This document shows, one piece after another, positions 13,314-42,110 of a DNA stretch of 64,000 bases. Below the pieces are notes generated by a model that did no database searches, was not told where the DNA came from, and worked only from the letters and a program-made list of their open reading frames with translations. Positions within the stretch are counted from its first letter, which is position 1, and every line of letters starts with the position of its first letter. A program made the translations under genes and the position numbers. The stretch spans positions 1,317 to 65,316 of IMG/VR virus record IMGVR_UViG_3300029106_000003. One strand, given 5' to 3'. This DNA comes from a virus.

Positions 13314-13349
13314 CAAAGATAATAAAAGTGTATGAAAAACATGCACTTT
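13314..13349 (-). promoter_or_regulatory. palindrome-type promoter (TATCTTTG -7 box plus 27-bp palindrome) for tail spike operon
   Basis: AAAAGTGTATGAAAAACATGCACTTTT adjacent to TAnnTTTG box about 12 nt upstream of ATG at 13302. Confidence 0.5.
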
Positions 13350-13351
13350 TT

Positions 13352-13771
13352 TTATGAATTTCTATCTGCTGGATTATATTCGACAAGTTTTAGAGAAAAT
13401 CGTGCTATTCCTCTCATGAATTGCGTAAATTGATTGCATGAAATATAGATTGTTTTGTAAGTAATATTTGGTTGATACTTTGTTTTTATATTTATTATGC
13501 CTGTTGCCAATTCTTCACAAAAGCTGTTGTATCTTGAAAAGAATTCTTCTTCCGTTTTTGCCGTCAGGTTAAAAGTTAAAGTGATATTTCGTTCATCGAT
13601 TTTAGGATTAGAGGACAGGACTCGTTTGCCATGTTCTAATCGAGACTTGTTTTCGATGAACTCTTTTAAAGGTGACGGTGTCATTAAGGAGGAAAGAGAT
13701 GATGTATCCATACTTATACCCCAAGTTGTATAGCAGTCTTTCCCATTTATGTAAAACTCTCCCGATGCCAT
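13352..13771 (-). CDS. hypothetical protein
   Basis: 139-aa ORF, AT-rich. Confidence 0.4.
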   Translation of the reverse strand: MASGEFYINGKDCYTTWGISMDTSSLSSLMTPSPLKEFIENKSRLEHGKRVLSSNPKIDERNITLTFNLTAKTEEEFFSRYNSFCEELATGIINIKTKYQPNITYKTIYISCNQFTQFMRGIARFSLKLVEYNPADRNS

Positions 13772-13772
13772 T

Positions 13773-14198
13773 TTATTTAAGTATAACTGAAGTTTTGTCT
13801 TTATTGATTTCTACAGGACAATTTCGTATGTTTATAAGTCTAATAACTGCGTAATTACGGGCAACTATTATAGCTCTGGCTCCATGCATGAGTATAACTT
13901 TGTGAACTCTAGTATTATCGTCAAATACTAGTTCCGCATTGGTATTGCCTATTAAAGCAATATTGGTATCATTACTTCTTTTTACATTTTTAGTGTCAAC
14001 AAACACGCAATAATTAGCAATATCATTACTCATCTCACGGAACGTTTCAATAGGAGGGAAGTTGTTCTTCTCACAAAACTCTATGCCTTGTGGTGTAAAG
14101 AACAACCATACTAGAGTTTTCCAGTCACTAACACCATAAGACTTATCGCAAGCTCCTTTTTGTAAAGCAGCCATCATTATTTCTTTTACTGTATTCAT
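13773..14198 (-). CDS. hypothetical protein
   Basis: 141-aa ORF, AT-rich. Confidence 0.4.
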   Translation of the reverse strand: MNTVKEIMMAALQKGACDKSYGVSDWKTLVWLFFTPQGIEFCEKNNFPPIETFREMSNDIANYCVFVDTKNVKRSNDTNIALIGNTNAELVFDDNTRVHKVILMHGARAIIVARNYAVIRLINIRNCPVEINKDKTSVILK

Positions 14199-14200
14199 AT

Positions 14201-17200
14201 CTATAAATCTTTAGTATTCCTATTGACTTGTGCTATATCGGATTTTATATCAATTAATAATTTCGTATATTTTGCAATGTCTTCTAAGTAGCTATTCGTA
14301 ATCACATGTTGATTAAGAATGTTATTTAGTATAGAATTGCTATTAGTTGATACAGATAAAAGAGAATTTAGAGAGATTACGGCTGAAATCATTTGATTTT
14401 TGATTTCTTCACCAGAAAGCTGCAACGCTGTAAACCGGCCGTTTAATTCCGTTGCTGTATCTTGTGACATGGTTTCAAAACCTCCGGCTTTCGACTTTTG
14501 TTCGGTGGTAGAACTTTCTCCCATGAGACTATCAGCCCAACCGAATTGAGCATCTATTTCTTGTTGAAGCTGTTCAGCCATGTTGTTGATGTAATCTTGT
14601 TCCCATTGAGAAAGCACGTTGTCGGCATAAAATTGTTGCAACTTAGTGCGTATTTCCTCCATTTTATTTGAGGATTTAATTGCTGCCTTAATGCTCTCTG
14701 TTACCATTTGTTGCATCATCTGCTTTACAACATCTTTTGCAGATTTAGCCCTATTCTCGCCAGAAGCCCATGCATCTGCATAAGCTTCTGCAAAGTTGTC
14801 AATAGCACTTTTTAGGTCTTCACCAAATATGACATTGATAGCTTTTTCTTTGTTATCAGAAATGAGATTGTTTATTTCGTCAATTTGATTTTCCCATTCT
14901 TTTATTCTGTCGCTATCTGTATTCTTTTTATCTTGTTCTTCTTTAATTTGATTTTGAATAAGTACTTTTTGTTGTTCTAGCAATTTATTTTGGTCTTCAA
15001 TCAAGCTGGAAGCACTCTTTCCGTAAGCAGTTTCAATGGACTTGCCTAACTTTTCATACGAACGGTCAAGTGTATCTACCTGATCTTGTAATTTCTGAAT
15101 CCGTTTTTCATTTTTTGCGTCGTGGATTTTTGCGATAGAGGAAGCAAGAGAGGAGACAAGACCGATGGCAGCACCAGCAGCAGAACCTATCGGTCCAAAT
15201 ATAGCACCTGCCTCTGCTCCTTGCATAGCTGAATTGAGGCCGTCCATAGCCACATTGATACCTTCGGCAATGCCTGACAGTGTATCAGATCCGAAAGCCT
15301 CTCCGAGATTTGAAAATGTGTCGGAAAGGAATTTGGCCACACTTAATACCTCACTCAATCCACTTCTTATTTCTTCAAGTCCATCTTGCAATTTTTTTGT
15401 ATTTGAACCGGCATCGAATACTTTTTTAAGACCATTAGCTAGTTTGTTAAACCCCGTTTCAGATTGATCTGCGGAATTACGGACATTATCTATACCTTTT
15501 CTAATTCGTTCTAATTCTTCGGGAGATTTACGCAATGTGTCGAAGGTCTCTTTTGTCATACCAAATTCAAGACCTTTGTTTTCGTCCCATTCGCCTGATT
15601 GCAAGAATTGGAATGCCCGTTCAGCTTCATTAGCAATGAGACGCATATCTGCAACTGTGTGTTGACGCATATCGTCAAACAATTTACTTATGGCAGACGT
15701 AGATTTATTCGCCTCTATATCCAAATCAGATAGTGCCCTTTTTGTTTCTTCGTCAATAGACTTCTGTTCCCATTCGTTTTTGCCTACCTTACGAGATTCG
15801 CCTTGCTCAATAATAGCATTACGCTTTTCATAATAGTTCCCGTAAGCGGCAAGATAATCGTTCATTGCGTTAATTTCATCATCGAGAATTTCTTTGGTCT
15901 GTTTATTCTTATTCTTTTCATTTAACCTATTTGCGGTATCAATATTTTCCTGTTGTTCAGTTGTTAGTCCATTCTCATTAAGCTTGGAGGGTTCAATCTT
16001 AGCTACTTTGTTTAACTCGGCCAGCTCTTTCTCTTTCTTTTTAATTTCTTTTTTCTGTTCTTCATAATAGTAGTTAATTTGCTTCAATTTCTTATCTTTA
16101 CCTTCTTCCCAGAGGGAGATTTCTTTCTCTTGATTTTTTTTACGAAGCTCAAGAAGTTCATCAACAAGTTTCTGCTCGGCCTCTTTTTGCTCTTTTGCTT
16201 GCTTATCTTCAGCCGCTTTATCAGATTTGGTTTTAGGCAGCTTTGCACGGAGTGCGTCAATTCGTGATTGTAACGCATTGTATTCCTTGCTTCCGCTTAC
16301 AGTTTCTCCCTGCTCTTTCTCTAATTTTGAGATTTGTGTTTTGACTTCATTGATTACTCTCAAATCTTTCTCACGTTCAAGTATAGTGTCTTGAAGCGAC
16401 TTGATATAAGCCTCTTGTTGATCCACTGCTTCTTTTGTTCCGCTGCCGTCTGCAAGGGCCTTTTTTAATGATGCAAGTGAGGTTTCAGCCTTCTTGATTT
16501 CTTCTTCAAGTTGGGAGATGGATTTACCTTCTGTTGTAAAAATATTTTCAGTAGGTGAATCAAATGAGGGTTCGGGAATGAAATATTTGTTTCTGTATTC
16601 TTCTAAATTTTTATTTCTTATTTCAGCTTGTCGCCTTATTTCAAATAGAAGTGTATTTGCACTTTCTCCCCATCCAGTAGATACATCATTAAAAATCCTT
16701 TGAATTTCTGTCGGTATATCTCGACCGCTATCCAGCCAGTTTAACCAATTTCGGTAGACTTTTAATCCAGACTCATCTCCATATTTTTTTGTAAATGCAT
16801 CATATACTTTTGTTAAGTTTTTTTCTCTGACGCTATTGTATATATCTTCTTCTTGTTTGGCAAAATTGGTATAATTTTGTGCGGCCATAGATTTACGTAT
16901 GGCTTTTTCTAATTTTTCATATTGTCCAGCAAGAGACCCTGTTTTATCAATTTCTTCATCAATGCCAGAAAGATACTTTGAATAGCCATTTACTATTTTT
17001 TCTTTTATAGCATACCATTCGTCAGACCATTTTTTAGCCTCCGTAAGTTGCCTATTAAGTTCCCTTAATGTGGACATTTCATTTAATGCAGCCACTTCGG
17101 TTTTACCAAATTCATCGTTCAGCCTTTCCTGTGCCTTTTCTGCTTCTGTTTGATAAGTGACTAATTTATAAATACCTAAACCTAGTGCTGTTACTGCCGC

Positions 17201-18232
17201 TGCTACTGCGACATATGGGTTGGCAAGTAAAGTCTTGTTGAGTAGGGATTGAGCTTTTTGTGTAAGCACCAGCCAACTATAATGTATTGCCTCTTTAGCT
17301 GTCAATGCAGTAATACCAGCAGCTTGAAGGTTATGTAATGCAGTAATAGCCATAAGCGCAGTTCTGTATGCTCCGTATGTACCGACCAATTCAATTAGTA
17401 TTTTTCCTACTTTTTCATAGTTTTCTATCAAATAAGAGACGCTGGATAATGCATCATTGATAATACCTTCATTCGCTTTGCCGATCTCGTTCAACATCAT
17501 CGAGAAACTATCTCCTATGTTAGAAATCTGTCCGGTAATGGTTTTGCTTTGTTCTTGCATTAAGTTAAAGAACATACCACCCTCGTTGGTAAGGTTCTGT
17601 ATGACTTTCTGAACCTCTGGAAACCCTATCATACCAGCTTCTACCATTCCTTTGATTTCACTTTCAGCTACTCCAAATTCTTTGGCAAGTTCTTTTATCA
17701 TTGGAATACCTCGTCCAGTGAATTGGTTTAGGTCCTGTGTATAAAGTCGACCTTGTGTCATAGTTGTACCATAGAGATATACTAAGTCTCCCAAAGGTTG
17801 TGAAAGTCCGGCTGCAATGTTCCCTAATCGTATAAGAGTCTCGTTAACATCTTCAGCAGAAGTACCGTAAGCCAGTAATTGACGAGCTCCATTGGCAACA
17901 CCTTGTAGATCGAATGGAGTTTTGGCGGCTGTTTCTGTGAGCTGAGCCATAAGGACGTTTGCCTTTTCACTACTTCCAAGCATAGTGGTAAAGGCGACCT
18001 CTAATTGTTGAAATTCACCTCTTACTTGTATAATATTTTGGATAAGTTCTTTTGCTGTAAAGCCAGCCCCAAAAGCTGCAGCTGCTTTCGTCATTTTGTT
18101 GAACATATCTTCTATGCCCAATCCATTTTTTTCTATTTCCTTAGAAGTATTGGTTACTCCGGTTTCTACTTCTCGTAGTTTACGAAGAAAATTAGAATTG
18201 TCGCCTGTTATATCAAAATGAAGTCCGGCCAT
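14201..18232 (-). CDS. tail tape measure protein
   Basis: 1343 aa, largely coiled-coil, hydrophobic Gly/Ala-rich stretch (AGAIFGPIGSAAGAAIGLV), position between tail tube and tail tip genes. Confidence 0.8.
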   Translation of the reverse strand: MAGLHFDITGDNSNFLRKLREVETGVTNTSKEIEKNGLGIEDMFNKMTKAAAAFGAGFTAKELIQNIIQVRGEFQQLEVAFTTMLGSSEKANVLMAQLTETAAKTPFDLQGVANGARQLLAYGTSAEDVNETLIRLGNIAAGLSQPLGDLVYLYGTTMTQGRLYTQDLNQFTGRGIPMIKELAKEFGVAESEIKGMVEAGMIGFPEVQKVIQNLTNEGGMFFNLMQEQSKTITGQISNIGDSFSMMLNEIGKANEGIINDALSSVSYLIENYEKVGKILIELVGTYGAYRTALMAITALHNLQAAGITALTAKEAIHYSWLVLTQKAQSLLNKTLLANPYVAVAAAVTALGLGIYKLVTYQTEAEKAQERLNDEFGKTEVAALNEMSTLRELNRQLTEAKKWSDEWYAIKEKIVNGYSKYLSGIDEEIDKTGSLAGQYEKLEKAIRKSMAAQNYTNFAKQEEDIYNSVREKNLTKVYDAFTKKYGDESGLKVYRNWLNWLDSGRDIPTEIQRIFNDVSTGWGESANTLLFEIRRQAEIRNKNLEEYRNKYFIPEPSFDSPTENIFTTEGKSISQLEEEIKKAETSLASLKKALADGSGTKEAVDQQEAYIKSLQDTILEREKDLRVINEVKTQISKLEKEQGETVSGSKEYNALQSRIDALRAKLPKTKSDKAAEDKQAKEQKEAEQKLVDELLELRKKNQEKEISLWEEGKDKKLKQINYYYEEQKKEIKKKEKELAELNKVAKIEPSKLNENGLTTEQQENIDTANRLNEKNKNKQTKEILDDEINAMNDYLAAYGNYYEKRNAIIEQGESRKVGKNEWEQKSIDEETKRALSDLDIEANKSTSAISKLFDDMRQHTVADMRLIANEAERAFQFLQSGEWDENKGLEFGMTKETFDTLRKSPEELERIRKGIDNVRNSADQSETGFNKLANGLKKVFDAGSNTKKLQDGLEEIRSGLSEVLSVAKFLSDTFSNLGEAFGSDTLSGIAEGINVAMDGLNSAMQGAEAGAIFGPIGSAAGAAIGLVSSLASSIAKIHDAKNEKRIQKLQDQVDTLDRSYEKLGKSIETAYGKSASSLIEDQNKLLEQQKVLIQNQIKEEQDKKNTDSDRIKEWENQIDEINNLISDNKEKAINVIFGEDLKSAIDNFAEAYADAWASGENRAKSAKDVVKQMMQQMVTESIKAAIKSSNKMEEIRTKLQQFYADNVLSQWEQDYINNMAEQLQQEIDAQFGWADSLMGESSTTEQKSKAGGFETMSQDTATELNGRFTALQLSGEEIKNQMISAVISLNSLLSVSTNSNSILNNILNQHVITNSYLEDIAKYTKLLIDIKSDIAQVNRNTKDL

Positions 18233-18277: not shown

Positions 18278-18313
18278 CAAATATACAAAAGTGTATGAAA
18301 TTCATATACTTTT
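18278..18313 (-). promoter_or_regulatory. palindrome-type promoter for tape measure operon
   Basis: AAAAGTGTATGAAATTCATATACTTTT adjacent to TATATTTG box (minus strand). Confidence 0.5.
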
Positions 18314-20787: not shown

Positions 20788-20929
20788 GCAAAATAAATTA
20801 TATTGAGCGCAACTGTGGGGTCGAACCACAACTTTATACATGGAGTGTATATGTGCTACCGTTACACTAGATACGCAGAACACGTGGGTACGAAGCCCCC
20901 ACGTTTGGCTCTATCTACAACCTATTGAA

Positions 20930-23047: not shown

Positions 23048-24358
23048 TTAACTATCTCCATTTGTTGTTTTATATGATTCAACAGCTTTTTTGAGCTTAG
23101 CTTCATCGGCATCATTCAATTTGTTTACAGCAGCAATTAACTTATCGTCTGAAATAGTAGTCGATAAGTTTTTACCGGTTATTTTATTGAACTCTGCGAC
23201 GAAGTTTGCTTTTATGTAAGCTTGTCCCCAAATGGTGATGTTCTTATCGGTAGAATCTTTTCCCTCTTCGGTAGTGTCAATCGTTTGAGCCTCTGAGATG
23301 TCAAGAGAGTAGATTTGGTCTACGTTTTCAATAACAGGGAGAACTAATGCTTGACCACTTGTAAATTCCTGCAAAGGATCATTTTTAGAATACTTGCTGA
23401 TAAGTTTGTATTCATCTACCGTGGAATAAATTACTCCTGCTACGGGATTAGTAACTTCTGCAAGTGTGCCCCAAACCAATGCGCCAACTTCTTGTGTAGT
23501 AAGGAATATTAGTTTGTTCGCATTCCACGGTTTGTACGGAATGCGTTTACCATTTTTCTCAGAAATTACTGTACGGTCAATCTTTAAGAATGTAATTCCG
23601 TTGTTGTCATCGGCAAATGCTTCGTCAAATAATGTAGCAGTAGGAACAGGTAACTTAGTGTTGCTGTCGAATGTCTGACCTCGATAGTTGGCAACCAATT
23701 CTTTTGCCCATTGTTCTTGTCTCATTTTATTGTAAGTCGATAACGAGATTGCTATCGTTGTAATTGAGTTTCCATCTGCGTCAGCTTTTGCAATAACACG
23801 CTTTATGTCATCAGAGGAAATAGTTCCAGCTGTTTCTACACCAAAGCTATTTTGCGGTAAATAGTTGAAATTTATGCGCAATCCAGTTCCTGTATTGTTT
23901 TCATCTTCAACGATTACAACTCCATCAGATAAAGCAGTTAAAAAGTTTGCTTCGTTCTTTTCATCGATACCAACAGAGCAAGCTACCGCATCGTTGGTTA
24001 GCTTGTTAGCTATATTAGTGAACGCAGCTCCTTGAGCTTTCATGATGTTGATTGTGTTGATCTGAGTCTCACGAAGAATTTTTTTCATTCCGACCTTTGG
24101 CAATGTACCATTTGCGTGTGCAATGGAGTCTCTCATCTTGGGAGGGAGAGGTGAGTCCATTGCTACCATGTCGGCCGCAACATAAGTTGTGTTAACTGAT
24201 GCACTTTCCCACTTTTGGTCTGCGGAATATTCTTTGCGAAGCATTGTCTTGTGAAGATATGTAAGCTGATTGCCTCGCTTACCATTGATTCTCTCGATGA
24301 TGGTTTGAAGTTTCGGGAAAATCTTTCTGATGTATTCAATAAATAGTGATTCTTTCAT
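23048..24358 (-). CDS. major capsid protein
   Basis: 436 aa following scaffold-like acidic protein, in TerL-scaffold-capsid order. Confidence 0.55.
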   Translation of the reverse strand: MKESLFIEYIRKIFPKLQTIIERINGKRGNQLTYLHKTMLRKEYSADQKWESASVNTTYVAADMVAMDSPLPPKMRDSIAHANGTLPKVGMKKILRETQINTINIMKAQGAAFTNIANKLTNDAVACSVGIDEKNEANFLTALSDGVVIVEDENNTGTGLRINFNYLPQNSFGVETAGTISSDDIKRVIAKADADGNSITTIAISLSTYNKMRQEQWAKELVANYRGQTFDSNTKLPVPTATLFDEAFADDNNGITFLKIDRTVISEKNGKRIPYKPWNANKLIFLTTQEVGALVWGTLAEVTNPVAGVIYSTVDEYKLISKYSKNDPLQEFTSGQALVLPVIENVDQIYSLDISEAQTIDTTEEGKDSTDKNITIWGQAYIKANFVAEFNKITGKNLSTTISDDKLIAAVNKLNDADEAKLKKAVESYKTTNGDS

Positions 24359-24801: not shown

Positions 24802-25510
24802 TTAGAAAGTGTTGACTAAATCTTCAACTTCTTTGTCGGTTAATACTTCGTCTTGTTTACCCGAACCTTTACTTCCGGCAGCAGGAGGGGTTGCCAATGT
24901 TGCCAAACCTGCATCTGCACGCTCTTGATTGTAATTCTTCAGGTCTTCCTCAACATCTGAATAGAACTCCTCGAAATCGTCGTCACTTTCAAAGTTCATC
25001 TTAGAGAAGCTTTTCAAGGTACGTGAACCGAATGTTCCAGTGTCTTTCAGCAGGGCTTCAAGTTTGGCTTTACGCAAGTTAGAAACTTTTTCACCTTCCA
25101 ATGCTGCAAAACGGGCTTCCTGTTGCTCTCTGAAAGACTTAAACCATGCGGGTTCTTCGTCTTGTTCATTTCCTTTGTTGTTGGGATTTTTCTTGTTTGA
25201 ACCAGCTGGACGAGAGCCGCCTTTTGACGTGTCATCGTCAACGTCGTCATCATCATCTTCTTCTGATTCGGGGTGTTTTTTCTTCCATTCGTCAAGCAAA
25301 CGGTTGGCTTGCGACTGGCCGAAAGTGAGGTAAGGGAGAACCGCTTCTATCTGCTCGTCGATTTCTGCGTTTACATCCTCTTCTGAGGCATCTTCTGCGG
25401 ATTTCAGGTTATCGGCAATATTGGCGGCGATACCCTTCAATTCCTTTGCGTTGAACCCTAACGCCTTCGCTTTAAGTTTCAACCTTACGAAAACTTGCTG
25501 TTGTCTGTTC
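24802..25510 (-). CDS. scaffolding protein candidate
   Basis: Highly acidic (EEDDDDDVDDD), helical, upstream of capsid; start MNRQQQ at 25510. Confidence 0.5.
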
Positions 25511-25528
25511 ATTTCATTTAGGTTTAAA

Positions 25529-25657: not shown

Positions 25658-25695
25658 CAAATATACAGTAAAGTATATGAATTTCATACACTTTT
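25658..25695 (-). promoter_or_regulatory. palindrome-type promoter for head operon
   Basis: TAAAGTATATGAATTTCATACACTTTT adjacent to TATATTTG box. Confidence 0.5.
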
Positions 25696-29375: not shown

Positions 29376-29376
29376 A

Positions 29377-31464: not shown

Positions 31465-32317
31465 ACCTCAACTTAACTAAGGATTTATAATTGGGAATGA
31501 ATGTAACAATGTCTCCGATACAATAATCAGAACTGTCACCGTATACTTTCATTATCGTGTATTCGCTTGAGCTGTTAGAAAAGTCCAAATGGTTATCAAG
31601 GCAACGACATTCCCCCATATCAGCCATTGAATAACCGCAATCAAGTAGTATTTGATTCCGCTCAGGGTAAATGCCGATAACTTCTGTATGCAACTCGATA
31701 CCATTTAACCCTAACTTTTCATCATCGCTGTTATATGGGATTGTGCCAAATAGCATATATTCTCCAATGCGCACGTCGCTTATGAATTTAGGTAGATCTT
31801 CATTCTGTCCTAACCAAAAACTACCACCTAAACTGATAGATTCAATGTAACTATTCAGCTTAGACCATATTTCACACAATCGTTGCATATTCGGCCTGTT
31901 TCCATTTAGGCAACCGGAAGTAATCATACCATAAGCGTGAGAATTATCATCGCATTTACGAACCGTATTAGCAATCTGTCTTGCTTCAAATAGGCTTACT
32001 CCCTCTCTGTTGTCGAAAGCATTGATGGGAATATATATTTTTTTAATACCCTTATTTACTACACAATCCATTGCTTCATACGCAGTAACAGTTACTGTCC
32101 CTTTCTGATTATGAATTGCTTTTCCAATAGAGTAGCACACGCTATCTTCAAAGTGAAGCGAGAAAATGTCATTATCAACCCTATAATGGATATGTCTCCA
32201 AATATCCTCATAGAAGTCTTTGAACATGAGAGAGACAGGGACATTCACAAGCGTTTCCGCTTTCTTGATGTTCTTTATAACATTATCAGTATATATGATT
32301 ACTTTCATAGCTCCCAT
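31442..32317 (-). CDS. hypothetical enzyme (possible Cys-nucleophile hydrolase/transferase)
   Basis: 291 aa; YGMITSGCLNGN and LLDCGYSMADMG motifs; operonic with amidoligase-like and GNAT genes. Confidence 0.35.
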   Translation of the reverse strand: MGAMKVIIYTDNVIKNIKKAETLVNVPVSLMFKDFYEDIWRHIHYRVDNDIFSLHFEDSVCYSIGKAIHNQKGTVTVTAYEAMDCVVNKGIKKIYIPINAFDNREGVSLFEARQIANTVRKCDDNSHAYGMITSGCLNGNRPNMQRLCEIWSKLNSYIESISLGGSFWLGQNEDLPKFISDVRIGEYMLFGTIPYNSDDEKLGLNGIELHTEVIGIYPERNQILLDCGYSMADMGECRCLDNHLDFSNSSSEYTIMKVYGDSSDYCIGDIVTFIPNYKSLVKLRYAEHEYR

Positions 32318-33204
32318 TTTAAAATGATACGTTCAGCTCCTTTGTATTTCGTATCTCGTTTGAATGAGAACCCGACATTGGTGAAACTTTTTATGCTTGC
32401 TTCATTTTTAGGAGAGGTCATTGCAAATATCTCTTGTGCACCATTAGAAACCAATTTTGCGATATTCGCATTGAGAAGGAGGTACTGGAATCCATTTCCT
32501 CTGTAACCAGAACAGACAAAACATTTGTCGACGTATGCCGTACCGTATTCCGTAAAATAAGCAAGCGAGTAGGCTACAAGAGAACCGTCTAGCAATAAGC
32601 CATAACTGCAACCGGATTGCAAACATTTAGTTATATCCTGTGGTTCTGATGCAAAGCAGGTTTCAGGATTCGAGAGCATGGTTTGTTCCATTGCTTCAAT
32701 TTCAGAAATGTCAGACATGGACAGCGTTTTGATTTCCATCTTACACTCAATGCTTCCTATATCAGTGGGAAACAAAGGATCATATCTGTCTATCCATGCT
32801 TTAGATAGGAATACATCAATATCTGTTTGAGGTAGTAATTTTCTTCTGTAATTTTCAAAAATACCTAATACAAACTCTTTATGCTTAGTTAGTTGTTCAT
32901 TCTTCAAAGGGCACTTACCACTACGAAAAACAAAGCCTTTATTCACTGATTTTATCCACAATGGATAGGTACGACACATGATAGGTTTATAGCCGTTATC
33001 ACATGATTTGCAGTTTTTAGCGATACATTTTACCTTTTTACCGCCAAAATAATCATTATCTATAATTTGTAAATGGGATATTTCCTGTTCGTGTCCAGCA
33101 AATTCATGGGGTAGAATAACAATATGTCCGTCCGATCCGAACGAACAACATTTCCAACCGCAACCGGAGTTTTCGCATGCTCTTATTAGTCCTTTATCGT
33201 ACAT
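32305..33204 (-). CDS. YkgJ-like Cys-cluster domain fused to GNAT acetyltransferase
   Basis: N-terminal CENSGCGWKCC...CIAKNCKSCDNGYKPIMCRTYP (UPF0153 CxxCxxCC-like); C-terminal GYRGNGFQYLLLNANIAKLVSNGAQEIFAMTSPKNEASIKSFTNVGF (GNAT motif A/B). Confidence 0.5.
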   Translation of the reverse strand: MYDKGLIRACENSGCGWKCCSFGSDGHIVILPHEFAGHEQEISHLQIIDNDYFGGKKVKCIAKNCKSCDNGYKPIMCRTYPLWIKSVNKGFVFRSGKCPLKNEQLTKHKEFVLGIFENYRRKLLPQTDIDVFLSKAWIDRYDPLFPTDIGSIECKMEIKTLSMSDISEIEAMEQTMLSNPETCFASEPQDITKCLQSGCSYGLLLDGSLVAYSLAYFTEYGTAYVDKCFVCSGYRGNGFQYLLLNANIAKLVSNGAQEIFAMTSPKNEASIKSFTNVGFSFKRDTKYKGAERIILKWEL

Positions 33205-33426
33205 ATTCTTGGGTTGTATATAACTTCATATACATTTTGTGTTAAATCTGCCGAGCGTATTCCCGGCAGACTTAAACACAAATTCAATCATTCTTCAAGC
33301 TACTTACAAGAACACTTATGCAATTCTTCGGCTTCTTTCAGTCGTGTCAGATAGCAATTTCTATCACCCCGTAAACTGCACAAGCTTTAATGTTCTTGCT
33401 TTTGCTTATCGCTACTATAAGGGTTG

Positions 33427-33496
33427 AGCGGAAACAGGGAATCGAACCCCACTCTTTGGTTGGAATGCCAACGCTCTGCCGATGAGCTATTTCCGC
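33427..33496 (-). tRNA. tRNA-like gene with atypical anticodon arm (TCC/TTC region; possible 8-nt loop)
   Basis: GCGGAAATAGCTCATCGGCAGAGCGTTGGCATTCCAACCAAAGAGTGGGGTTCGATTCCCTGTTTCCGCT: good acceptor, D and T arms (TTCGATT) but anticodon stem-loop cannot be folded as canonical 5-bp/7-nt. Confidence 0.5.
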
Positions 33497-33727: not shown

Positions 33728-34132
33728 TCAAAACAAACTCGCTTGTTCATAATTGGGCTCTTTCTTCTCAACAACTCCAAATTCTGTGATTTCAATACCA
33801 GTATTTTCTGTGATCCATTTTGCCAAAATATGGCGATGGCAGAAATCACCCGGTTTTTCGTAGCAACAAAGAGCAACGTCTTTTCCTCCGCTTAACATTT
33901 CAATTTGTTTCACGACTTGGTTCGCATCTTGGCTTGCCAATATTCTGTCGTAAAGTTTTAGGTATTCATCGTGGGAACAAGGTCCACTTACCATATAACG
34001 AGTCGGGCAAACATTCAGCATTTGTGGAATACCAGCTATAAATCTGGGTTTTCCGATTGCTACGCAAATCATATTAACTTCCGCCTCTTTCAGTTTTCGG
34101 ATATTACCGAAATACGATGTAAAAATCTTCAT
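33728..34132 (-). CDS. DUF488 family protein
   Basis: MKIFTSYFGN...GKDVALCCYEKPGDFCHRHILAKWI conserved DUF488 signature; longer ORF start overlaps promoter palindrome. Confidence 0.5.
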   Translation of the reverse strand: MKIFTSYFGNIRKLKEAEVNMICVAIGKPRFIAGIPQMLNVCPTRYMVSGPCSHDEYLKLYDRILASQDANQVVKQIEMLSGGKDVALCCYEKPGDFCHRHILAKWITENTGIEITEFGVVEKKEPNYEQASLF

Positions 34133-34153: not shown

Positions 34154-34190
34154 TAAATATATAAAAAGTATATGAAATTCATGCACTTTT
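34154..34190 (-). promoter_or_regulatory. palindrome-type promoter for DUF488/tRNA/GNAT-amidoligase/terminase transcription unit
   Basis: AAAAGTATATGAAATTCATGCACTTTT adjacent to TATATTTA box. Confidence 0.45.
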
Positions 34191-34209: not shown

Positions 34210-34461
34210 CTACCACGTTTTTATTATTTCTATGACTTTTTCATATTCTCCAGCGTGTAACAATGACGCTTCGGTATGGAAATTTATATCAGTTAATCGA
34301 TATTCTATAAGTAAACAGGTATATTCATCACCAATTTTGCGATGGTTTTGATGTTTCTTGGCAAGTGATTCCAATTCTTTGCAAGATAGACAGTAGTGAT
34401 TCTTGCGATTAAGATTCCGCATCTTATTAACATCTTCTTCTTTCAAATCTTCGTATGTCAT
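34210..34461 (-). CDS. hypothetical protein
   Basis: 83-aa ORF. Confidence 0.35.
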   Translation of the reverse strand: MTYEDLKEEDVNKMRNLNRKNHYCLSCKELESLAKKHQNHRKIGDEYTCLLIEYRLTDINFHTEASLLHAGEYEKVIEIIKTW

Positions 34462-34958
34462 GGCTTAATCCTCCTCAAATTCGTCTTCATATACAAAAAT
34501 ATGTTTACCACTTCCACAAATCTCGACTTCCCATTTATGTATGTTCGGCCAATATTCGATTAGAATTATGTTTCTATAGCCTTTATATGGCTCTTTCAAT
34601 GTTGCTGTTCTCATTGCTCATGATTTATGTGATTTGATACTCGTTTCTTTTAGCTTAGCGAAATAATCAATCCGATCTTTGTCTTCATATCGCAATCGCT
34701 AGGAACATCTTTCTATGCTGTCTCTCTGTTTTTTACTAAGCATATCTGCATGTTTAGCCCATTCGATTGAACCGGCAGGAAGAAACTCAAACTTAGGGAA
34801 AAATTTTGTTTCATATGAAAACCTCACTATTCTAGCATATTCCCTCAAATCGTTTGTTTCTGGGTCTGTGGAATTAGGGGTCTCTATTGATTCACATACA
34901 ATTACCATACAGGGCTGGTATAGAAACACAATTTTATTTGCTTTCATTGCTTTTAATG

Positions 34959-35398: not shown

Positions 35399-35683
35399 TT
35401 ATCCGTTATACGTTGATGTTATTTCTTCTGCACGGAGTTCTTTTCTTAACTCACCGTTCCTATATATTCTCACGGCTACTATTCTAACTGTATCGGATAG
35501 GAAACGCCCGCAGTCATTAGCTAGCTTAACTTGTAATTGAATAGCTTTTGCTAAATTTTTAGTACGCTTTCTTATGGTTTTCTTGAATCCGAAAACATAA
35601 TCTTCGGTATCGATTTCGAACTGGTAGGTGTCAGAGTGTAGTATCTGACTCAATTCAGCTGTCATTTGTTGTATTCTATTCAT
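35399..35683 (-). CDS. hypothetical protein
   Basis: 94-aa ORF with conserved AAGAGCAATG start context. Confidence 0.4.
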   Translation of the reverse strand: MNRIQQMTAELSQILHSDTYQFEIDTEDYVFGFKKTIRKRTKNLAKAIQLQVKLANDCGRFLSDTVRIVAVRIYRNGELRKELRAEEITSTYNG

Positions 35684-36823
35684 TGCTCTTATTGTTTAAG
35701 TGGTTATTTTGGATATATAAAGATACAAATAATATATTGAATATCAGTAGTTTGTGTTTAAAATATTGCTTACTTAAACTTTGTTTAACTTTTTGTCTCT
35801 CAGCGACTTTTGGTCAAGTATCTGTGCAAACAAACCAGTTGCAAACACTATTTCACGTCCATACTTATCCTTGCATCGAATGTATATATCTGCATCTTTA
35901 CCAGACATATAAAGCTCATACAGATTATTGTATGGACGAATGCAATCACGGAACATTTCCGATGCTGTCTTTGGCTTACGATAACCACCTCTGCCCATAC
36001 TTTTCAAATAATAATGATTTACTTTTCTCTATCTCCTTGTCTGTGTCGATTCCGAGTTGTTGATAGAAAACAGAATTACCGGATAGGCATTCATGTGCTA
36101 TCTTCAATGTTCTACGTTCTTCTTTGGAGAAACCAACTCGAAAAGTAGAGAATATAGCTAATGCTTCTTTCAAATAGCCGGAGTGGAGTAGGGATATAGC
36201 TTTACTTGTTTTGGTTTCCATAAGGGTAAATTTCGATGTCTTCAAAATCATCGTCAGTAAGGGCGATTTCTTCTGTGTTTATCATTTCTTCTACTTTCTC
36301 ATGAGCGGAATCCATGTTTTCTGCTTCTACCACCACTACCTTCGAGTAGGTTTCGATTATTCTGAATTTGTATTTCATTCTATATCCCCTTTATTTAGTT
36401 TTGAATTTTGCAATCCTGCATGATACCCATCAATCCATATCAACAATTCTGTGGGTTTCAGATACCCGCTTATCCTGTGACATGGAATGCCCCCTTCTAT
36501 TACTCTATCCCCAGTAAATGATTTGTCGTGTATTACGAACGCATAATACCCATAAGAGAATGACGAAGCGGTTAGATGCATTTGATTAGCATGACAGTAC
36601 TTTTCTAATTGTTTTAATGCTTCTTTTTGTGTCATAACTGATGATTTATAGATTTTCGTTGATTTTCTTTTCTGTCCGTTTAATGAATCGTTTAATCATA
36701 TCTTCTAACTCATTCCTTAAATCGTCCTTGTCAAGATATGAGCGGAAAGTTTTCGATTGTAAAATATAAATGATAGCATACGATTTTTATCCGTTAGATT
36801 TAACAATGATTATTCGTCACTTA

Positions 36824-37708: not shown

Positions 37709-37711
37709 TGC

Positions 37712-37840
37712 TCTTTGTCTTTTAATTGTTAGTAATGTTGTTGTTTTAGTATTGTAAAGATACTCATTATCAGCGAGTTAACCAAATATTTACAGCGTTA
37801 TTTTGCTCATAATCAAGAGTTTAACTTTTGGTAACTTGAA
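37712..37840 (-). repeat. 125-bp promoter/5'UTR cassette, copy B
   Basis: Near-identical to 26565-26700. Confidence 0.6.
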
Positions 37841-37982: not shown

Positions 37983-38270
37983 TTAATCTCCACAATAACG
38001 CCCGCTTTGGTTTCTGTAATACTCTATTATACCTCTTTCCATTGCTGAGTCGAATACAATCGATTCGGGCTTTTGTGCGGGTCCCGACTTTTTCATTAAC
38101 CGGCGAGCCTCTTTTTCTGCCTTGCGGGCTTCCGCTTTCATCTTAAACCATGCGTTCCTCAAACAAGCACTGAACGACTGGCAGAACTCACGGCCGAGAA
38201 CCGAGATAGAGCGTTTATACATTGACCATGCCATTTTGAAGAGTTGCGATTTGTTGATTTTCGTTTTCAT
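37983..38270 (-). CDS. hypothetical basic protein
   Basis: 95 aa, K/R-rich. Confidence 0.35.
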   Translation of the reverse strand: MKTKINKSQLFKMAWSMYKRSISVLGREFCQSFSACLRNAWFKMKAEARKAEKEARRLMKKSGPAQKPESIVFDSAMERGIIEYYRNQSGRYCGD

Positions 38271-38298
38271 ATCTTTGTTTTAGTTTTATGATATAAAG

Positions 38299-38381
38299 AT
38301 ACAAGTTATATCTTGTATTTACAATAGTTTGAGCAAGATTTATCTTGTATTTAACTTTATTTATACAAGATATAGCTTGTA
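38299..38381. promoter_or_regulatory. operator-like inverted repeats in divergent control region
   Basis: ATACAAGTTATATCTTGTAT (38299-38318), CAAGATTTATCTTG (38334-38347), TACAAGATATAGCTTGTA (38364-38381); shared half-site CAAG/CTTG. Confidence 0.55.
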
Positions 38382-38428
38382 TATACTAATAAAAAAACGA
38401 CTTTTGTAACAGAAATAACTTTTAGGAT

Positions 38429-38692
38429 ATGAGAATAAGAGATATTATTGAGCAAAAAGGTATAACGACAAAAGAGTTAGCCGAAAGAATGGGAATTAGC
38501 CAAAGTGCATTGAACCAACATATATCAGGGAATCCTTCGATTAAAGTTCTTACTTCAATTGCTTCTAATTTAGGAGTTGATATATGGGAATTGTTTATAT
38601 CACCAGAAGAAGTACGCCCCAATAGCGATACTACTATATTGACGTGTCCTAAATGTGGAGCGAAGTTAAAGGTAATTGAGTCAAAAGATTAA
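38429..38692 (+). CDS. XRE-family HTH regulator with C-terminal zinc ribbon
   Basis: ITTKELAERMGISQSALNQHISG HTH; CPKCGAKLK. Confidence 0.65.
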   Translation: MRIRDIIEQKGITTKELAERMGISQSALNQHISGNPSIKVLTSIASNLGVDIWELFISPEEVRPNSDTTILTCPKCGAKLKVIESKD

Positions 38693-38695
38693 GCC

Positions 38696-39616: not shown

Positions 39617-39949
39617 TTACCACAAAGCAACCTTTCCGCCTATTCCCAAATCAAGGGTGGCCGTTGTAATTCCCAAAGCCTTAAAAACTTTGCTCATAGT
39701 AGGAAGTGTTATTATACACTTACCGCTTTCAAGTTTGGATATTTGCGACTTCTTTACACCTACTTTAGCCCCTAACTCTTCCTGTGTGAGGTTCTGTTTG
39801 AGCCTTTCTGCCTTGATAGCCTCTCCAATGTAATAAGCCTGCAAATCATCTTTGAGTTGAGCTTCCATAGCGTCCCTTTCGGGAGTGCCTTTTTCTCCCC
39901 AAACCTCATCTACTACCACGCTAAGTGGAGTTAAGTTCATCTTTGCCAT
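39617..39949 (-). CDS. higA: HigA-like HTH antitoxin
   Basis: LTQEELGAKVGVKKSQISKLESGK XRE HTH; immediately downstream of HigB-like gene. Confidence 0.6.
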   Translation of the reverse strand: MAKMNLTPLSVVVDEVWGEKGTPERDAMEAQLKDDLQAYYIGEAIKAERLKQNLTQEELGAKVGVKKSQISKLESGKCIITLPTMSKVFKALGITTATLDLGIGGKVALW

Positions 39950-39951
39950 AG

Positions 39952-40320
39952 CTATTTGTTTTTATCGTTGAAGTATTCTATTCTCAATTTCTCCGCCTTT
40001 TCTATCTCCTTTTTAGGCGTTTTCTGTGTCTTTTTCACTATCCCGTGAGTGGCTACTACCAAAGCCTCTATTTCCGTGTCCCAAAAAGCAAACAGGCGAT
40101 AACATACCCCGTTAAAGAGCGTCCGAAACTCCCATATATCGGAGTTCTCCAACTTCTTGAAGAGTTCCTTATCTATTTCCCCTCCCTCCACTTTAAGGAG
40201 ATTATAGGTTATTTTCTTTTGCGCCTTTTCTGGTAAGGAAGAAACAAACTCCCTTGCTGCGTCCATAAATGCTATTTTTATTCTTCGTCCGCTCATAAGG
40301 TTCAAATTATTACTCTGCAA
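39952..40320 (-). CDS. higB: HigB/Gp49-like RelE-family toxin
   Basis: IWEFRTLFNGVCYRLFAFWDTE...VVATHGIVKKTQKTPKKEIEKAEKLRIEYF matches Gp49/HigB family. Confidence 0.65.
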   Translation of the reverse strand: MQSNNLNLMSGRRIKIAFMDAAREFVSSLPEKAQKKITYNLLKVEGGEIDKELFKKLENSDIWEFRTLFNGVCYRLFAFWDTEIEALVVATHGIVKKTQKTPKKEIEKAEKLRIEYFNDKNK

Positions 40321-40486
40321 AGATATACAAAAGTTTCCATAAAAGCAAACTTTTGCGAGGATTTATTAGCTTGATAATTGGCTGACCCCTCCTACTTGTA
40401 AGCTCGGAGGGGAGATGTTCAGGAAATTGGGATCCGATATATTATAAACATCGGTATCTTTATATTAATGCTTAAAATATTACGTT

Positions 40487-40786
40487 TCATATCGCCTTAA
40501 AATCCAATCGGCCTAAATTGTCATTTATAGACTTAATGATACTTTCCTGTATCAAGGTTCCGCATTGGGTTGTTAGTTGTATAAAGTGATCTGTATCATT
40601 ATCTGATACAATTCCGTACTTGTTCTTCCAGTTGCAAAAAGAGTTCTCTATATCTCGCAATCCTGCCAACATGATTAATAACTCCCTTGTCTGTCCACTG
40701 ATGACTGCGTTACGCATGGTATCGACGCTACGATGTTCGATTACTTCTACTGTCTGCTCATCTTGTTTTAATTCGGTTGTTTCCAT
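40487..40786 (-). CDS. hypothetical protein
   Basis: 99-aa ORF. Confidence 0.35.
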   Translation of the reverse strand: METTELKQDEQTVEVIEHRSVDTMRNAVISGQTRELLIMLAGLRDIENSFCNWKNKYGIVSDNDTDHFIQLTTQCGTLIQESIIKSINDNLGRLDFKAI

Positions 40787-40992
40787 ATAAAAAAAGTTTA
40801 TTGTTTAACGATGTTAGGAATAGCGGGAATCCTCCCGGACACGTCCGCTACCGGTGGGATAGCTTACTTTCACAAGCGGCTGCCCCGTCTATAATTTAAC
40901 AAACATATAAAAGCACCCTATTAGGGTAGGGTAACCCGGAGCGGATAAACCGCCCCTTTGGATTTATAATAACTTTATGGTTATAGCTGATA

Positions 40993-41817
40993 TTATGCCG
41001 AGAGTTTGGTATTGAACAATTCAATGACAAACTTTCTACCTGATTCGGTCCAATACATGTGCTCTCTTGATTTCTGTACTCCGTTATCCATATAAGGGTA
41101 GGGGACATGTTTGGTAAATCCTTTACTGCGGTATTTGGCCGTGAGGAAGTAAACAGAAGATTGTCTGTATTGAACTCCCCATTCACATAGTAGTTTGTTC
41201 AGCTTTATAGCCGATACACCTAAGAATGCTGCTATCATGTTTGTCGTCACAAGTCCTTCACTCGACATGATTTCATCGTAACATTTACCTTTGGGGGCGA
41301 GGACCTTTATAGTATCGTCCTTTATGGATATTTCCTCGTCTTTTCTCTCGATGATAATTTGTTTCTGGGCATTTTCAGTTTCGAGCTGTTTTAATCGTTC
41401 TTCTCTTTTGGCAAGAGTGGCTTGTGCAATGGTTAGTGCACGTGCCATGATTTCTTCTGGTGTGTCTTCTTGCTTGGTGGAGATGTAGCCGCCTGTCTTT
41501 CGGATTGACGGAAGGACTTCACTTGTTATCCATTTGCGAAATGATTTTGCTTCTTGCTTCCTACTATCAAGAATAACATCATACATTCCGTCTTCATTAA
41601 CGAATAACATTTGTTGTATGCCTCCTGTTGTTTCAAGGGGGTAAGTTGAAATTACCTCCTTACTAAGTCTCTGATTTACGCCTTTTGATGATAATCCAAG
41701 ACATCTGCATAAATCACCTAAGCAAAATTTAGGATCATCGCTTGTACCGGCAGTACGGATTTCACCGAATTTAGGTGAATTAAAAATTTGAATGTTAGAT
41801 TGCATATCTGTAAGCAT
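40993..41817 (-). CDS. Bro-N / KilA-C antirepressor
   Basis: N-terminal FGEIRTAG...PKFCLGDLCRCLGL (Bro-N); C-terminal antirepressor KilAC-like region. Confidence 0.65.
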   Translation of the reverse strand: MLTDMQSNIQIFNSPKFGEIRTAGTSDDPKFCLGDLCRCLGLSSKGVNQRLSKEVISTYPLETTGGIQQMLFVNEDGMYDVILDSRKQEAKSFRKWITSEVLPSIRKTGGYISTKQEDTPEEIMARALTIAQATLAKREERLKQLETENAQKQIIIERKDEEISIKDDTIKVLAPKGKCYDEIMSSEGLVTTNMIAAFLGVSAIKLNKLLCEWGVQYRQSSVYFLTAKYRSKGFTKHVPYPYMDNGVQKSREHMYWTESGRKFVIELFNTKLSA

Positions 41818-42063
41818 TTAAAGATATGTTATAGGCAAACATAAAAAGCGGCTGCCATATACGCTGCTTACAGATAATGGGTTCCACTCCACAGAGCGAA
41901 ATATCTACGTATAGGCAACCGCCAATATATAAAAGTATAGGCATAAAAAAAGCCCAACTTTCTATTGAGCAAATTAACCGCTTGCCCTGCGAAATGGTTT
42001 ACCATTATCATGTAAGCATTACAAAAGTATTGAATTTTACGAGGTAATGCTAATTATTGGGCA

Positions 42064-42110
42064 CAAAATTAGAGCATGGAATCTTGAAAGTATATGAATT
42101 TCATACATAA
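42064..42110 (-). promoter_or_regulatory. palindrome-type promoter (degenerate copy)
   Basis: GAAAGTATATGAATTTCATACATAA with TAATTTTG box 14 nt downstream on minus strand. Confidence 0.35.

What the first reader, a model, noticed from the sequence alone, without database searches (positions are those of the whole stretch)
13314..42110. Conserved 27-bp palindrome fused to TAnnTTTG -7 box at five operon starts (phage promoter/operator class)
The near-identical palindrome AAAAGT(G/A)TATGAA(A/T)TTCATA(T/C)ACTTTT occurs at 13323-13349, 18287-18313, 25669-25695, 34164-34190 and, degenerate, at 42086-42110. In every case a Bacteroides-type -7 element (TATCTTTG, TATATTTG x2, TATATTTA, TAATTTTG) lies 0-3 nt downstream on the minus strand (14 nt for the degenerate copy), just upstream of the first gene. 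The loci are tail spike, tape measure, scaffold/capsid, DUF488-tRNA-cassette-terminase, and the Bro region. The palindrome occupies the position of the -33 element, so it is most likely the binding site of a dimeric phage regulator gating structural and packaging transcription, either a late activator or a repressor. The regulator is not identified.
Basis: seen in the sequence. Interest (0 to 1): 0.68.

Follow-up and report, generated by a model that had tools for sequence, protein, structure and literature searches.

The report
Shared late-promoter element of gut prophages
The repeated 27-bp palindrome is real and is one clade's version of a conserved DNA element found throughout a family of Bacteroidales gut prophages, placed just upstream of the promoter box of every virion-gene operon where the usual second promoter box should be, so it most likely binds a still unidentified phage regulator that switches late genes on.

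Summary
Four near-identical 27-bp palindromes lie at 13324-13350, 18287-18313, 25669-25695 and 34164-34190, with a variant at 42086-42112; none is expected by chance. Each of the four sits 1-3 nt upstream of a TAnnTTT(G/A) -7 box on the minus strand. They head the tail-fibre, tape-measure, scaffold/capsid and DUF488-terminase operons.

A sixth site (50948-50974, portal operon) shares only the outer arms. In 63 related viral loci, 173 sites follow one frame: AAAAGTG-N13-CACTTTT, then 1-3 nt, then the -7 box, all on the coding strand. The inner 13 bp differ between clades and often are not palindromic.

A hairpin or terminator role is not general. The CI-like HTH has its own, different operators. 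The fifth site, and copies in unrelated prophages, lie 13-16 nt from a -7 box and precede short RNAs that end in predicted terminators.

The best reading (about 0.5) is the binding site of an unidentified phage-encoded dimeric late activator. Repressor, terminator-insulator and direct RNA polymerase recognition remain possible. This is a new member of a known kind (P1 Lpa, Mu C and P2 Ogr late promoters).

The parts
13324..13350 (-). Late-promoter element P_fibre (minus strand AAAAGTGCATGTTTTTCATACACTTTT). It starts right after the stop codon of tail gene 13352-13771.
13314..13321 (-). -7 box TATCTTTG, 2 nt after the element. No TTG lies 17-23 nt upstream.
18287..18313 (-). Late-promoter element P_tmp (AAAAGTATATGAATTTCATACACTTTT), in the divergent intergenic region before tape-measure gene 14201-18232.
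18278..18285 (-). -7 box TATATTTG, 1 nt after the element.
25669..25695 (-). Late-promoter element P_scaffold (AAAAGTGTATGAAATTCATATACTTTA), before 24802-25551 and major head protein 23048-24358.
25658..25665 (-). -7 box TATATTTG, 3 nt after the element.
34164..34190 (-). Late-promoter element P_ter (AAAAGTGCATGAATTTCATATACTTTT), before DUF488 33728-34132, the tRNAs, amidoligase, ParB-like protein, TerS and TerL.
34154..34161 (-). -7 box TATATTTA, 2 nt after the element.
50948..50974 (-). It has the same arms and frame but a different, non-palindromic inner 13 bp. It is identical to the portal-promoter element of the L138 clade.
50938..50945 (-). -7 box TATATTTG, 2 nt after the sixth element. 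The portal gene starts at 50898.
42086..42112 (-). Variant copy (AATTATGTATGAAATTCATATACTTTC). The inner palindrome is kept and the left arm is lost. The same form is conserved in relatives L308-L311.
42064..42071 (-). -7-like box TAATTTTG, 14 nt after the variant copy. It is followed by a structured region of about 110 nt ending in GCCCAA...TTGGGCTTTTTTT (41945-42062).

Best explanation
The palindrome is the upstream half of a phage-specific late promoter. A host-type -7 box (TAnnTTTG) supplies the core contact for the host RNA polymerase. The usual -33 TTTG is missing. In its place, at roughly -41 to -15 (inferred; no start site is mapped), lies a dyad whose invariant parts are two 7-bp arms, AAAAGTG and CACTTTT, separated by 13 A/T-rich bp.

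The proposed mechanism is inferred, not shown. A phage-encoded dimer made early after induction binds the two arms on one face of the helix. It substitutes for the missing -33 contact and recruits or stabilises the polymerase. This turns on six operons together: portal, DUF488-terminase, scaffold/capsid, tape measure, tail fibre/lysis, and a short RNA at the variant site.

In the Barnesiella-infecting clade to which the window belongs, the inner 13 bp have also become uniform (TATGAAWTTCATA), giving the full 27-bp palindrome. The same full palindrome is reused one helical turn or more further upstream (13-16 nt spacer) in front of short RNAs that end in predicted terminators. Because the element is shared by all module heads, it also serves as a homology patch at which modules are exchanged.
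For: Statistics and placement:
- The sites are non-random.
- All six stand 1-3 nt from a -7 box on the gene strand, at the heads of virion-gene operons.
- In 63 full TerL-anchored loci there are 173 frames with a -7 box 1-3 nt downstream. All are on the TerL strand, none on the other strand and none in shuffles.

Conservation pattern:
- The arms and the spacing are conserved across clades that infect different genera, while the inner 13 bp diverge.
- In the tail-fibre promoter the upstream flank is unrelated between relatives but the palindrome is kept.

Promoter anatomy:
- None of the six promoters has a TTG 17-23 nt upstream of the box. Five other promoters in the window have one at 20 nt: 26618, 37762, 38301, 40325 and 51914.

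Signs of a protein site rather than a direct polymerase contact:
- In L132 the asymmetric element occurs in both orientations relative to the box.
- Full palindromes occur at 13-16 nt spacing in other contexts. The 13-14 nt cases are about one helical turn from the canonical 2 nt.

Rivals weakened:
- The immunity repressor has different operators.
- The hairpin is weak or absent at most sites.

From my own knowledge, late genes of known phages are almost always under positive control.
Against: - No transcription start site, expression data or binding data exist, so the -28 centre is inferred from the box position.
- No regulator was identified. Pfam, PHROG and PDB-sequence searches of more than 90 window proteins, and two structure predictions, gave no candidate with a recognisable late-activator or DNA-binding fold apart from the HTH, KilA-N and Bro-N proteins, which are accounted for otherwise or untested.
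- A dyad centred near -28 overlaps the core promoter, which is also the classical position of a repressor.
- The arm consensus is partly circular, because sites were collected by their arms. They do, however, fall at homologous positions.
- The same frame in unrelated bacterial genomes is mostly ordinary terminators, so a terminator ancestry or a second role is possible.
- The -33 box is the less conserved element in Bacteroides (my own knowledge), so these promoters might fire without help.
Confidence: 0.5

Rival explanations
1. The element is an operator of a dedicated repressor. The -7 boxes are sufficient promoters on their own. A dimer bound across -41 to -15 occludes the polymerase in the lysogen or early in infection, and late genes fire when it is removed.
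For: - The dyad overlaps the core promoter, with an inferred centre near -28.
- The -7 boxes are near consensus.
- The element occurs at different distances from the box: 1-3 nt and 13-16 nt. A repressor tolerates this.
Against: - The only obvious lysogeny repressor (HTH 38429-38692, on the opposite strand) has its own three operators of a different sequence, and the palindrome is absent from the switch region.
- No second repressor gene transcribed from the lysogenic strand was found.
- At 13-16 nt spacing the dyad would clear most of the core promoter.
- Negative control of all late operons is rare in known phages (my own knowledge).
Confidence: 0.2
2. The element is a terminator-promoter composite. 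The A-tract, hairpin and T-tract form a (bidirectional) intrinsic terminator that ends the upstream operon and insulates the next promoter. No dedicated DNA-binding protein is involved.
For: - The element lies between operons. At 13350/13352 it starts right after a stop codon.
- The window-type RNA hairpins fold at -6.7 to -13.9 kcal/mol and are followed by U-rich tracts.
- The same frame in 120 unrelated genomes is mostly perfect GC-rich hairpins. Median energy is -11.3 kcal/mol, and some abut a -7 box in Bacteroidota.
- 6 of 19 inner-sequence types pair better than shuffled interiors.
Against: - Across the family the interior is not significantly self-complementary: 2.64 against 2.20 pairs, p about 0.12.
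- Mean energy is -5.0 kcal/mol, and only 16% of types reach -10. Whole promoter classes fold at 0 to -3.
- At 18287 there is no co-directional upstream gene to terminate.
- The half-site differences are not compensatory.
- The arms stay GTG/CAC while the inner 'stem' is free to vary, which is the reverse of what a hairpin constraint gives.
Confidence: 0.12
3. RNA polymerase reads the element directly. A phage-encoded or alternative host sigma, or a modified host holoenzyme, reads AAAAGTG as a -35-like box and CACTTTT as an extended -7 element.
For: - The GTG of the left arm lies 22 nt from the box, one nt beyond the canonical 19-21 nt spacing of -33 TTTG.
- The fixed 2-nt spacing is promoter-like.
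Against: - The perfect 7-bp dyad symmetry is unexplained.
- The element works in both orientations in L132.
- The element occurs 13-16 nt away from the box elsewhere.
- No sigma-like protein was found among the scanned proteins.
Confidence: 0.1
4. The primary role is as a recombination site or linker. The repeats exist because they mediate module exchange or site-specific rearrangement.
For: - Module order differs between clades exactly at these elements.
- Hybrid elements and alternative joints occur at L335:18174 and in L003/L034.
Against: - The fixed distance and orientation relative to a -7 box and to gene starts are not needed for recombination.
- No recombinase is associated with the sites.
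- The joints are what homologous recombination at any shared 30-40 bp would give, so this is better seen as a consequence than as the function.
Confidence: 0.05

Closest known systems
Phage P1 late promoters with the Lpa (gp10) activator (my own knowledge, not tested here)
   Same: Several late operons each carry a normal -10-type box, no -35 box, and a conserved inverted repeat immediately upstream of the box (centred about -22).
   Different: The sequence is different, the dyad here is longer (7-13-7) and centred about -28 by inference, and the host is Bacteroidales with a -7/-33 promoter grammar. No Lpa-like protein was detected.
Phage Mu C-dependent and P2/186 Ogr/B-dependent late promoters (my own knowledge)
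   Same: Four or so late operons are switched on together by one small phage activator. It binds a dyad (P2: TGT-N12-ACA; Mu: a dyad overlapping -35) at promoters with poor or absent -35 boxes.
   Different: The P2 dyad is centred near -55 and the Mu dyad near -43. No Ogr/Delta zinc-finger or Mor/C family hit was found in the window. A small zinc-ribbon protein (59974-60222) exists but is unassigned.
T4 middle promoters (MotA box at -30 replacing -35) (my own knowledge)
   Same: A phage-specific element sits where the -35/-33 box should be, next to a host-type -10/-7 box.
   Different: The MotA box is asymmetric, is read by a monomer and needs AsiA. Here the element is a dyad.
Canonical Bacteroidota sigma-A promoter (-33 TTTG / -7 TAnnTTTG) (my own knowledge)
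   Same: The -7 box is the same. The window's other promoters follow the full grammar.
   Different: The -33 box is absent and is replaced by the dyad.
Bidirectional intrinsic terminators abutting the next promoter
   Same: They share the A-tract, GTG...CAC and T-tract frame. Examples in Bacteroidota genomes sit directly against a -7-like box.
   Different: The genomic examples have strong, perfectly paired GC-rich stems. Most phage elements do not.

Membership tests
Bacteroidota sigma-A promoter (-33/-7) | TAnnTTTG -7 box shortly upstream of the first gene | tested here: met
   All six sites have one; for the variant fifth site it is only a -7-like box (TAATTTTG) about 250 nt upstream of the Bro gene.
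Bacteroidota sigma-A promoter (-33/-7) | TTTG -33 box 19-21 nt upstream of the -7 box | tested here: not met
   No TTG lies 17-23 nt upstream at any of the six sites. One is present at 20 nt in five other promoters of the window.
Bacteroidota sigma-A promoter (-33/-7) | Mapped transcription start 4-8 nt after the box | not testable with these tools
   No RNA data. A conserved CA lies 4-5 nt after the box.
Phage late promoter with an activator dyad in place of -35 (P1 Lpa / Mu C / P2 Ogr kind) | The same element heads several late (virion, lysis) operons | tested here: met
   Portal, terminase, capsid, tape-measure and tail-fibre/lysis operons.
Phage late promoter with an activator dyad in place of -35 (P1 Lpa / Mu C / P2 Ogr kind) | Dyad-symmetric element overlapping the -35/-33 position | tested here: met
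   A 7-bp inverted arms frame conserved in 173 sites of 63 loci.
Phage late promoter with an activator dyad in place of -35 (P1 Lpa / Mu C / P2 Ogr kind) | Homologue of a known late activator (Lpa, Mor/C, Ogr/Delta, RinA/ArpU) encoded by the phage | tested here: not met
   No such Pfam or PHROG hit among the proteins scanned. This is why it is filed as 'works like', not as a member of any of these families.
Phage late promoter with an activator dyad in place of -35 (P1 Lpa / Mu C / P2 Ogr kind) | Promoter silent without the phage factor and active with it | not testable with these tools
   Needs reporter assays.
Intrinsic terminator | Stable stem-loop followed by a U tract | tested here: not met
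   A U tract is present, but mean hairpin energy is -5.0 kcal/mol, many sites fold at 0 to -3, and the interior is not significantly complementary. The feature is met only for some sites, including the window type.
Operator of the prophage immunity repressor (CI/Cro type) | The same sequence is present in the divergent promoter region next to the repressor gene | tested here: not met
   The switch region 38271-38428 carries ATACAAG-N6-CTTGTAT repeats instead. L017 has a different HTH and different operators but the same palindrome.
Site-specific recombination site | Associated recombinase and crossover within a defined core | tested here: inconclusive
   Recombinant joints occur at the element, but no recombinase was found near any copy.

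The most novel reading that the evidence does not exclude
Temperate siphoviruses of several Bacteroidales genera may share a late-promoter code, AAAAGTG-N13-CACTTTT-N2-TAnnTTTG. It would be read by a regulator with no recognisable DNA-binding domain, that is, a new family of activator acting from about -28 in place of the -33 contact of the Bacteroidota sigma. In the Barnesiella clade a second layer would exist: the uniform inner palindrome, also placed 13-16 nt upstream of small-RNA promoters near the immunity region and prophage ends. That layer would be read by a mobile factor, for which the 95-aa protein 37983-38270 is a weak candidate. The shared elements would double as the crossover points that reshuffle whole genome modules.
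Probability: 0.2. Interest if true: 0.65.

Novelty: new member of a known kind. Interest (0 to 1): 0.45.

Why it matters
- It gives a simple sequence rule that marks the heads of late operons in hundreds of uncultured gut prophages of Barnesiella, Bacteroides, Phocaeicola and Paraprevotella. For these phages no transcription signals have been described in the papers searched.
- It provides a 27-bp bait for isolating the late regulator.
- It offers a compact, probably phage-inducible promoter part for Bacteroidales engineering.
- It is a clear example of shared promoter elements acting as the joints at which phage modules are exchanged.

Tried and rejected
- **Close cultured relative.** None was found. 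Megablast of 13000-35000 against GenBank phages gave nothing, and TerL is at most 30% identical to any record.
- **Strict palindrome in one genome per species.** There were 0 hits. The looser arm frame returned at least 120 single hits in all kinds of bacteria, mostly ordinary terminators, so it says nothing about host regulons.
- **Hairpin or terminator as the general explanation.** Rejected as general.
- **CI-like HTH 38429-38692 as the binder.** Rejected, because it has its own operators.
- **Regulator hunt by annotation.** Pfam and PHROG searches of early and pre-late proteins gave nothing beyond HTH_3, KilA-N, Bro-N and a zinc ribbon. PDB sequence searches of DUF3560, p91, p142 and 2472-2771 gave nothing.
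- **Regulator hunt by structure.**
  - The core 94-aa protein 35399-35683 was predicted at pLDDT 71 with an alpha-beta fold and no PDB fold match.
  - The 95-aa protein 37983-38270 was predicted as a long helix with pTM 0.31, which is uninformative.
- **Regulator hunt by co-occurrence.**
  - Protein 37983-38270 accompanies the full palindrome in unrelated prophage backbones (the contigs of L040, L085, L030 and L017).
  - It stays 92% identical where the neighbouring HTH and its operators differ.
  - Six loci with this protein have no palindrome within 10 kb.
  - An attempt to extend one of those contigs returned only about 2 kb. This remains a lead only.
- **Genes specific to palindrome-bearing genomes.** These are 34210-34461, 34465-34614 and RadC-like 25920-26357. 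They are physically adjacent to the sites, so the correlation is confounded by linkage.
- **Literature.** Searches found no description of this motif.
- **Rfam.** No family matched the short RNAs.
Full report

Yes. The stated consensus, allowing up to three mismatches, hits 13324-13350, 18287-18313, 25669-25695 and 34164-34190 and nowhere else. None occurred in 100 shuffles. The 19-bp core also recovers the fifth copy at 42090-42108.

Almost all genes of the window lie on the minus strand. Read on that strand, each of the four good copies is followed after 1-3 nt by TATCTTTG, TATATTTG, TATATTTG or TATATTTA. The first downstream genes are:

- tail fibre 10009-13281 (PHROG alignments start at residue 7-8, so the second ATG is the likely start)
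- tape measure 14201-18232
- a phrog_5824 protein plus major head protein
- DUF488, the tRNAs, amidoligase, ParB-like protein, TerS and TerL

Otherwise the description is accurate.

**2.

TerL-anchored relatives from IMG/VR split into two groups.

- Loci with TerL at least 89% identical carry the window-type palindrome at the three homologous places.
- Loci with TerL 84-87% identical have none, even with up to 5 mismatches allowed.

The homologous positions in the second group are not empty. They carry 27-nt elements with the same outer arms and the same distance to the -7 box but other inner sequences. Examples are AAAAGTGATTGAGTTTACGCCACTTTT, AAAAGTGGCATTTAAAACGTCACTTTT and TAAAGTGAAGTAAAAAGAATCACTTTT.

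The frame is T-AAAAGTG-N13-CACTTTT, then mostly 2 nt, then TAnnTTT(G/A).

In 63 full-length loci there are 173 such frames with a box 1-3 nt downstream. All are on the TerL strand, none on the other strand and none in shuffled sequence.

Scanning the window with the frame finds a sixth site, 50948-50974, 2 nt upstream of TATATTTG and 40 nt upstream of the portal gene. Its inner sequence is that of the L138 clade. The whole portal block of the window is 93-99% identical to that clade.

**3. Host and lifestyle**

Homologues of the 94-aa protein 35399-35683 at 93-95% identity are annotated in Barnesiella intestinihominis, on contigs up to 3.2 Mb. Homologues at 77-83% identity are in Paraprevotella, Bacteroides and Phocaeicola chromosomes.

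The family is therefore temperate and spans several Bacteroidales genera. The full palindrome marks the Barnesiella clade.

**4. Promoter anatomy**

None of the six element-bearing promoters has a TTG 17-23 nt upstream of the box. Five other promoters in the window have one at exactly 20 nt. Those five include three near-identical 48-nt copies at 26600-26647, 37744-37791 and 51896-51943.

The phage therefore has two promoter classes: a canonical -33/-7 class, and a class in which the dyad replaces -33.

Suppose the start lies 4-5 nt after the box, where a CA is conserved. Then the element spans about -41 to -15, with its centre near -28. This position is inferred, not measured.

**5. Protein site or hairpin?**

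The window hairpins are weak, at -6.7 to -13.9 kcal/mol. At 34164 the best fold does not even use the palindrome, and differences between half-sites are not compensatory.

Across the family:

- Mirrored inner positions are not significantly complementary: 2.64 against 2.20 pairs of 6, p about 0.12.
- The mean energy of the 19 inner-sequence types is -5.0 kcal/mol, against -3.0 with shuffled interiors.
- Only 16% of types reach -10, and whole classes fold at 0 to -3.

By contrast, the arm frame in unrelated bacterial genomes picks up mostly perfect GC-rich terminators, with a median of -11.3 kcal/mol. A terminator ancestry, or a weak insulating side role for the window type, is therefore possible. 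It cannot explain the conserved arms around a free interior.

Three observations argue for a symmetric DNA-binding protein rather than direct reading by the polymerase:

- the perfect 7-bp dyad
- the occurrence of the asymmetric L132 element in both orientations
- full palindromes at other distances from the box (section 6)

**6. The fifth site and copies elsewhere**

The Bro-side copy keeps the inner palindrome but has AATTATG as its left arm and a 14-nt spacer to TAATTTTG. Exactly this form is conserved in relatives L308-L311, so it is not random decay.

Downstream lies a structured stretch ending in GCCCAA...TTGGGCTTTTTTT (z = -2.75), with no Rfam match.

Other prophages of a different backbone show the same layout. 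Their tape measure protein is 34-36% identical over its N-terminus and few other genes are shared. There the full palindrome lies 13 nt (L006, L040, L341, L345, L359) or 15-16 nt (L017, L030) upstream of a TATATTTG that precedes a 70-90-nt RNA with a terminator, next to the immunity region or the prophage end.

The 13-14 nt spacers are one helical turn away from the canonical 2 nt.

**7. Who binds?**

This is not resolved.

The opposite-strand HTH 38429-38692 has three operators of its own, ATACAAG-N6-CTTGTAT, in the switch region 38271-38428.

In L017 the HTH is 54% identical and the operators are different. Yet the neighbouring 95-aa protein (window 37983-38270) is 92% identical and the palindrome is the same.

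That protein also turns up on the contigs of L040, L085 and L030. Most of the 59 loci that carry it hold a palindrome. However, six loci have it without a palindrome within 10 kb, and its predicted structure is uninformative.

The proteins 35399-35683, 35976-36251 and DUF3560 are present in nearly all clades just upstream of the first late promoter. They show no recognisable DNA-binding fold or family.

No homologue of a known late activator or sigma factor was detected.

**8. Most likely mechanism**

The most likely mechanism is a phage-encoded dimer that binds the two arms and replaces the missing -33 contact, so that all virion-gene operons come on together. I put this at about 0.5.

What is shown:

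- the sites, their frame and their strand bias
- their position at the heads of late operons
- the absence of -33
- conservation of the arms across clades
- the separate operators of the immunity repressor

What is inferred: binding by a dimer, activation rather than repression, and the phage origin of the factor.

The rivals are a dedicated repressor (0.2), a terminator-insulator (0.12), direct polymerase or sigma recognition (0.1) and a recombination site as the primary role (0.05).

**9. Comparison with known systems** (from my own knowledge)

The arrangement works like P1 late promoters (-10 plus an inverted repeat at -22, Lpa), Mu C and P2 Ogr late promoters (one dyad at four late operons), and T4 MotA boxes (a phage element in place of -35).

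It is not a member of any of these families. The sequences and positions differ, and no homologous activator was found. No paper in the searched library describes this motif.

**10. Verdict**

This is a real, family-wide cis-regulatory element and a new member of a known kind. Interest is moderate (0.45). Its value lies in annotating late operons of many gut prophages, in fishing out the regulator, and in showing promoters as module joints.

Noticed in passing
window 26600-26647, 37744-37791, 51896-51943 (minus strand): Three near-identical 48-nt copies of a second promoter class, AAATATTTGG(T/A)TAACTC(G/A)CTGATAATGAG-TATCTTTA-CAATACTAAAA. It has a canonical -33 TTTG 20 nt from the -7 box. Each copy lies 1-3.5 kb upstream of a late-type element, ahead of a few small genes.
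   Followed up: partly
window 38271-38428: Divergent switch region between the 95-aa gene 37983-38270 and HTH 38429-38692 (followed by Fic). It holds palindromic operators ATACAAG-N6-CTTGTAT at 38299-38318 and 38363-38382 and a variant at 38334-38350.
   Followed up: partly
window 13290-13305 and 25635-25650 (minus strand); L132, L138, L162 and others: A conserved small hairpin, CGTATGAAGAT(A/G)TACG, lies at the very start of the tail-fibre and scaffold transcripts. Before the scaffold gene it is conserved in all clades, together with a possible short upstream ORF MK(M/T)YAT(R/E)LVV and a second hairpin AATAGTCTGC...GCAGACTATT.
   Followed up: partly
window 41945-42062 (minus strand): Structured RNA candidate of about 110 nt downstream of the variant palindrome, ending in a terminator-like GCCCAA...TTGGGCTTTTTTT. 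It has no Rfam match.
   Followed up: partly
L040 1697-1795; L017 1196-1275; also L006, L085, L341, L345, L359: Two different short RNA genes, each ending in a predicted terminator and each 13-16 nt downstream of a full window-type palindrome. They lie in a different prophage backbone, next to the immunity region, tRNA genes or the prophage end, and run convergent to the preceding operon. Neither has an Rfam match.
   Followed up: partly
window 45573-51575 compared with L138, L132 and L170; L335:18174; L003/L034: Module order differs between clades at the elements. The portal block lies between TerL and scaffold in other clades but upstream of the immunity/Bro region in the window. Hybrid elements and alternative joints show crossovers inside the palindrome.
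   Followed up: partly
window 28322-29414, 31442-33204: The window is a mosaic against its own clade. TerS is 51% and the ParB-like protein 44% identical to the clade, but 71% and 89% to other clades. Genes 31442-32317 and 32305-33204 occur in only 4-5 of 18 clade members.
   Followed up: no
window 28671-33204; L308-L311: The terminase-side late operon carries amidoligase, GNAT-phage-like and DAM-like-phage2 genes plus a ParB-like nuclease. Relatives add D-Ala-D-Ala-ligase-like and octopine-dehydrogenase-like genes. This looks like a DNA-modification cluster.
   Followed up: no
window 33426-33496 (minus strand): ARAGORN reports a tRNA-like gene with an abnormal two-base anticodon call, next to tRNA-Cys. 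A tRNA-Gly lies at 20805-20876.
   Followed up: no
window 37983-38270; L345 10303-10728: The 95-aa protein next to the repressor gene is 91-93% conserved in many loci where the neighbouring HTH is only 35-54% identical. Its N-terminal motif, QLFKMAW...CLRNAWFKMK, recurs in the adjacent 141-aa protein of L345.
   Followed up: partly
window 39617-40320, 42254-44232, 4701-5213, 54426-54962: Accessory cassettes: a Gp49-like toxin with HTH antitoxin, AbiTii next to an HTH-M78 protein, and two SocA/Panacea-domain proteins.
   Followed up: no
L194, L208, L233, L277, L205, L234, L298 (Bacteroidota genomes): Strong terminator hairpins of the form AAAAGTG...CACTTTTTTT lie directly against a -7-like box, 18-43 nt from the next gene start. 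This shows that terminator-promoter fusions of this shape occur in host genomes.
   Followed up: no
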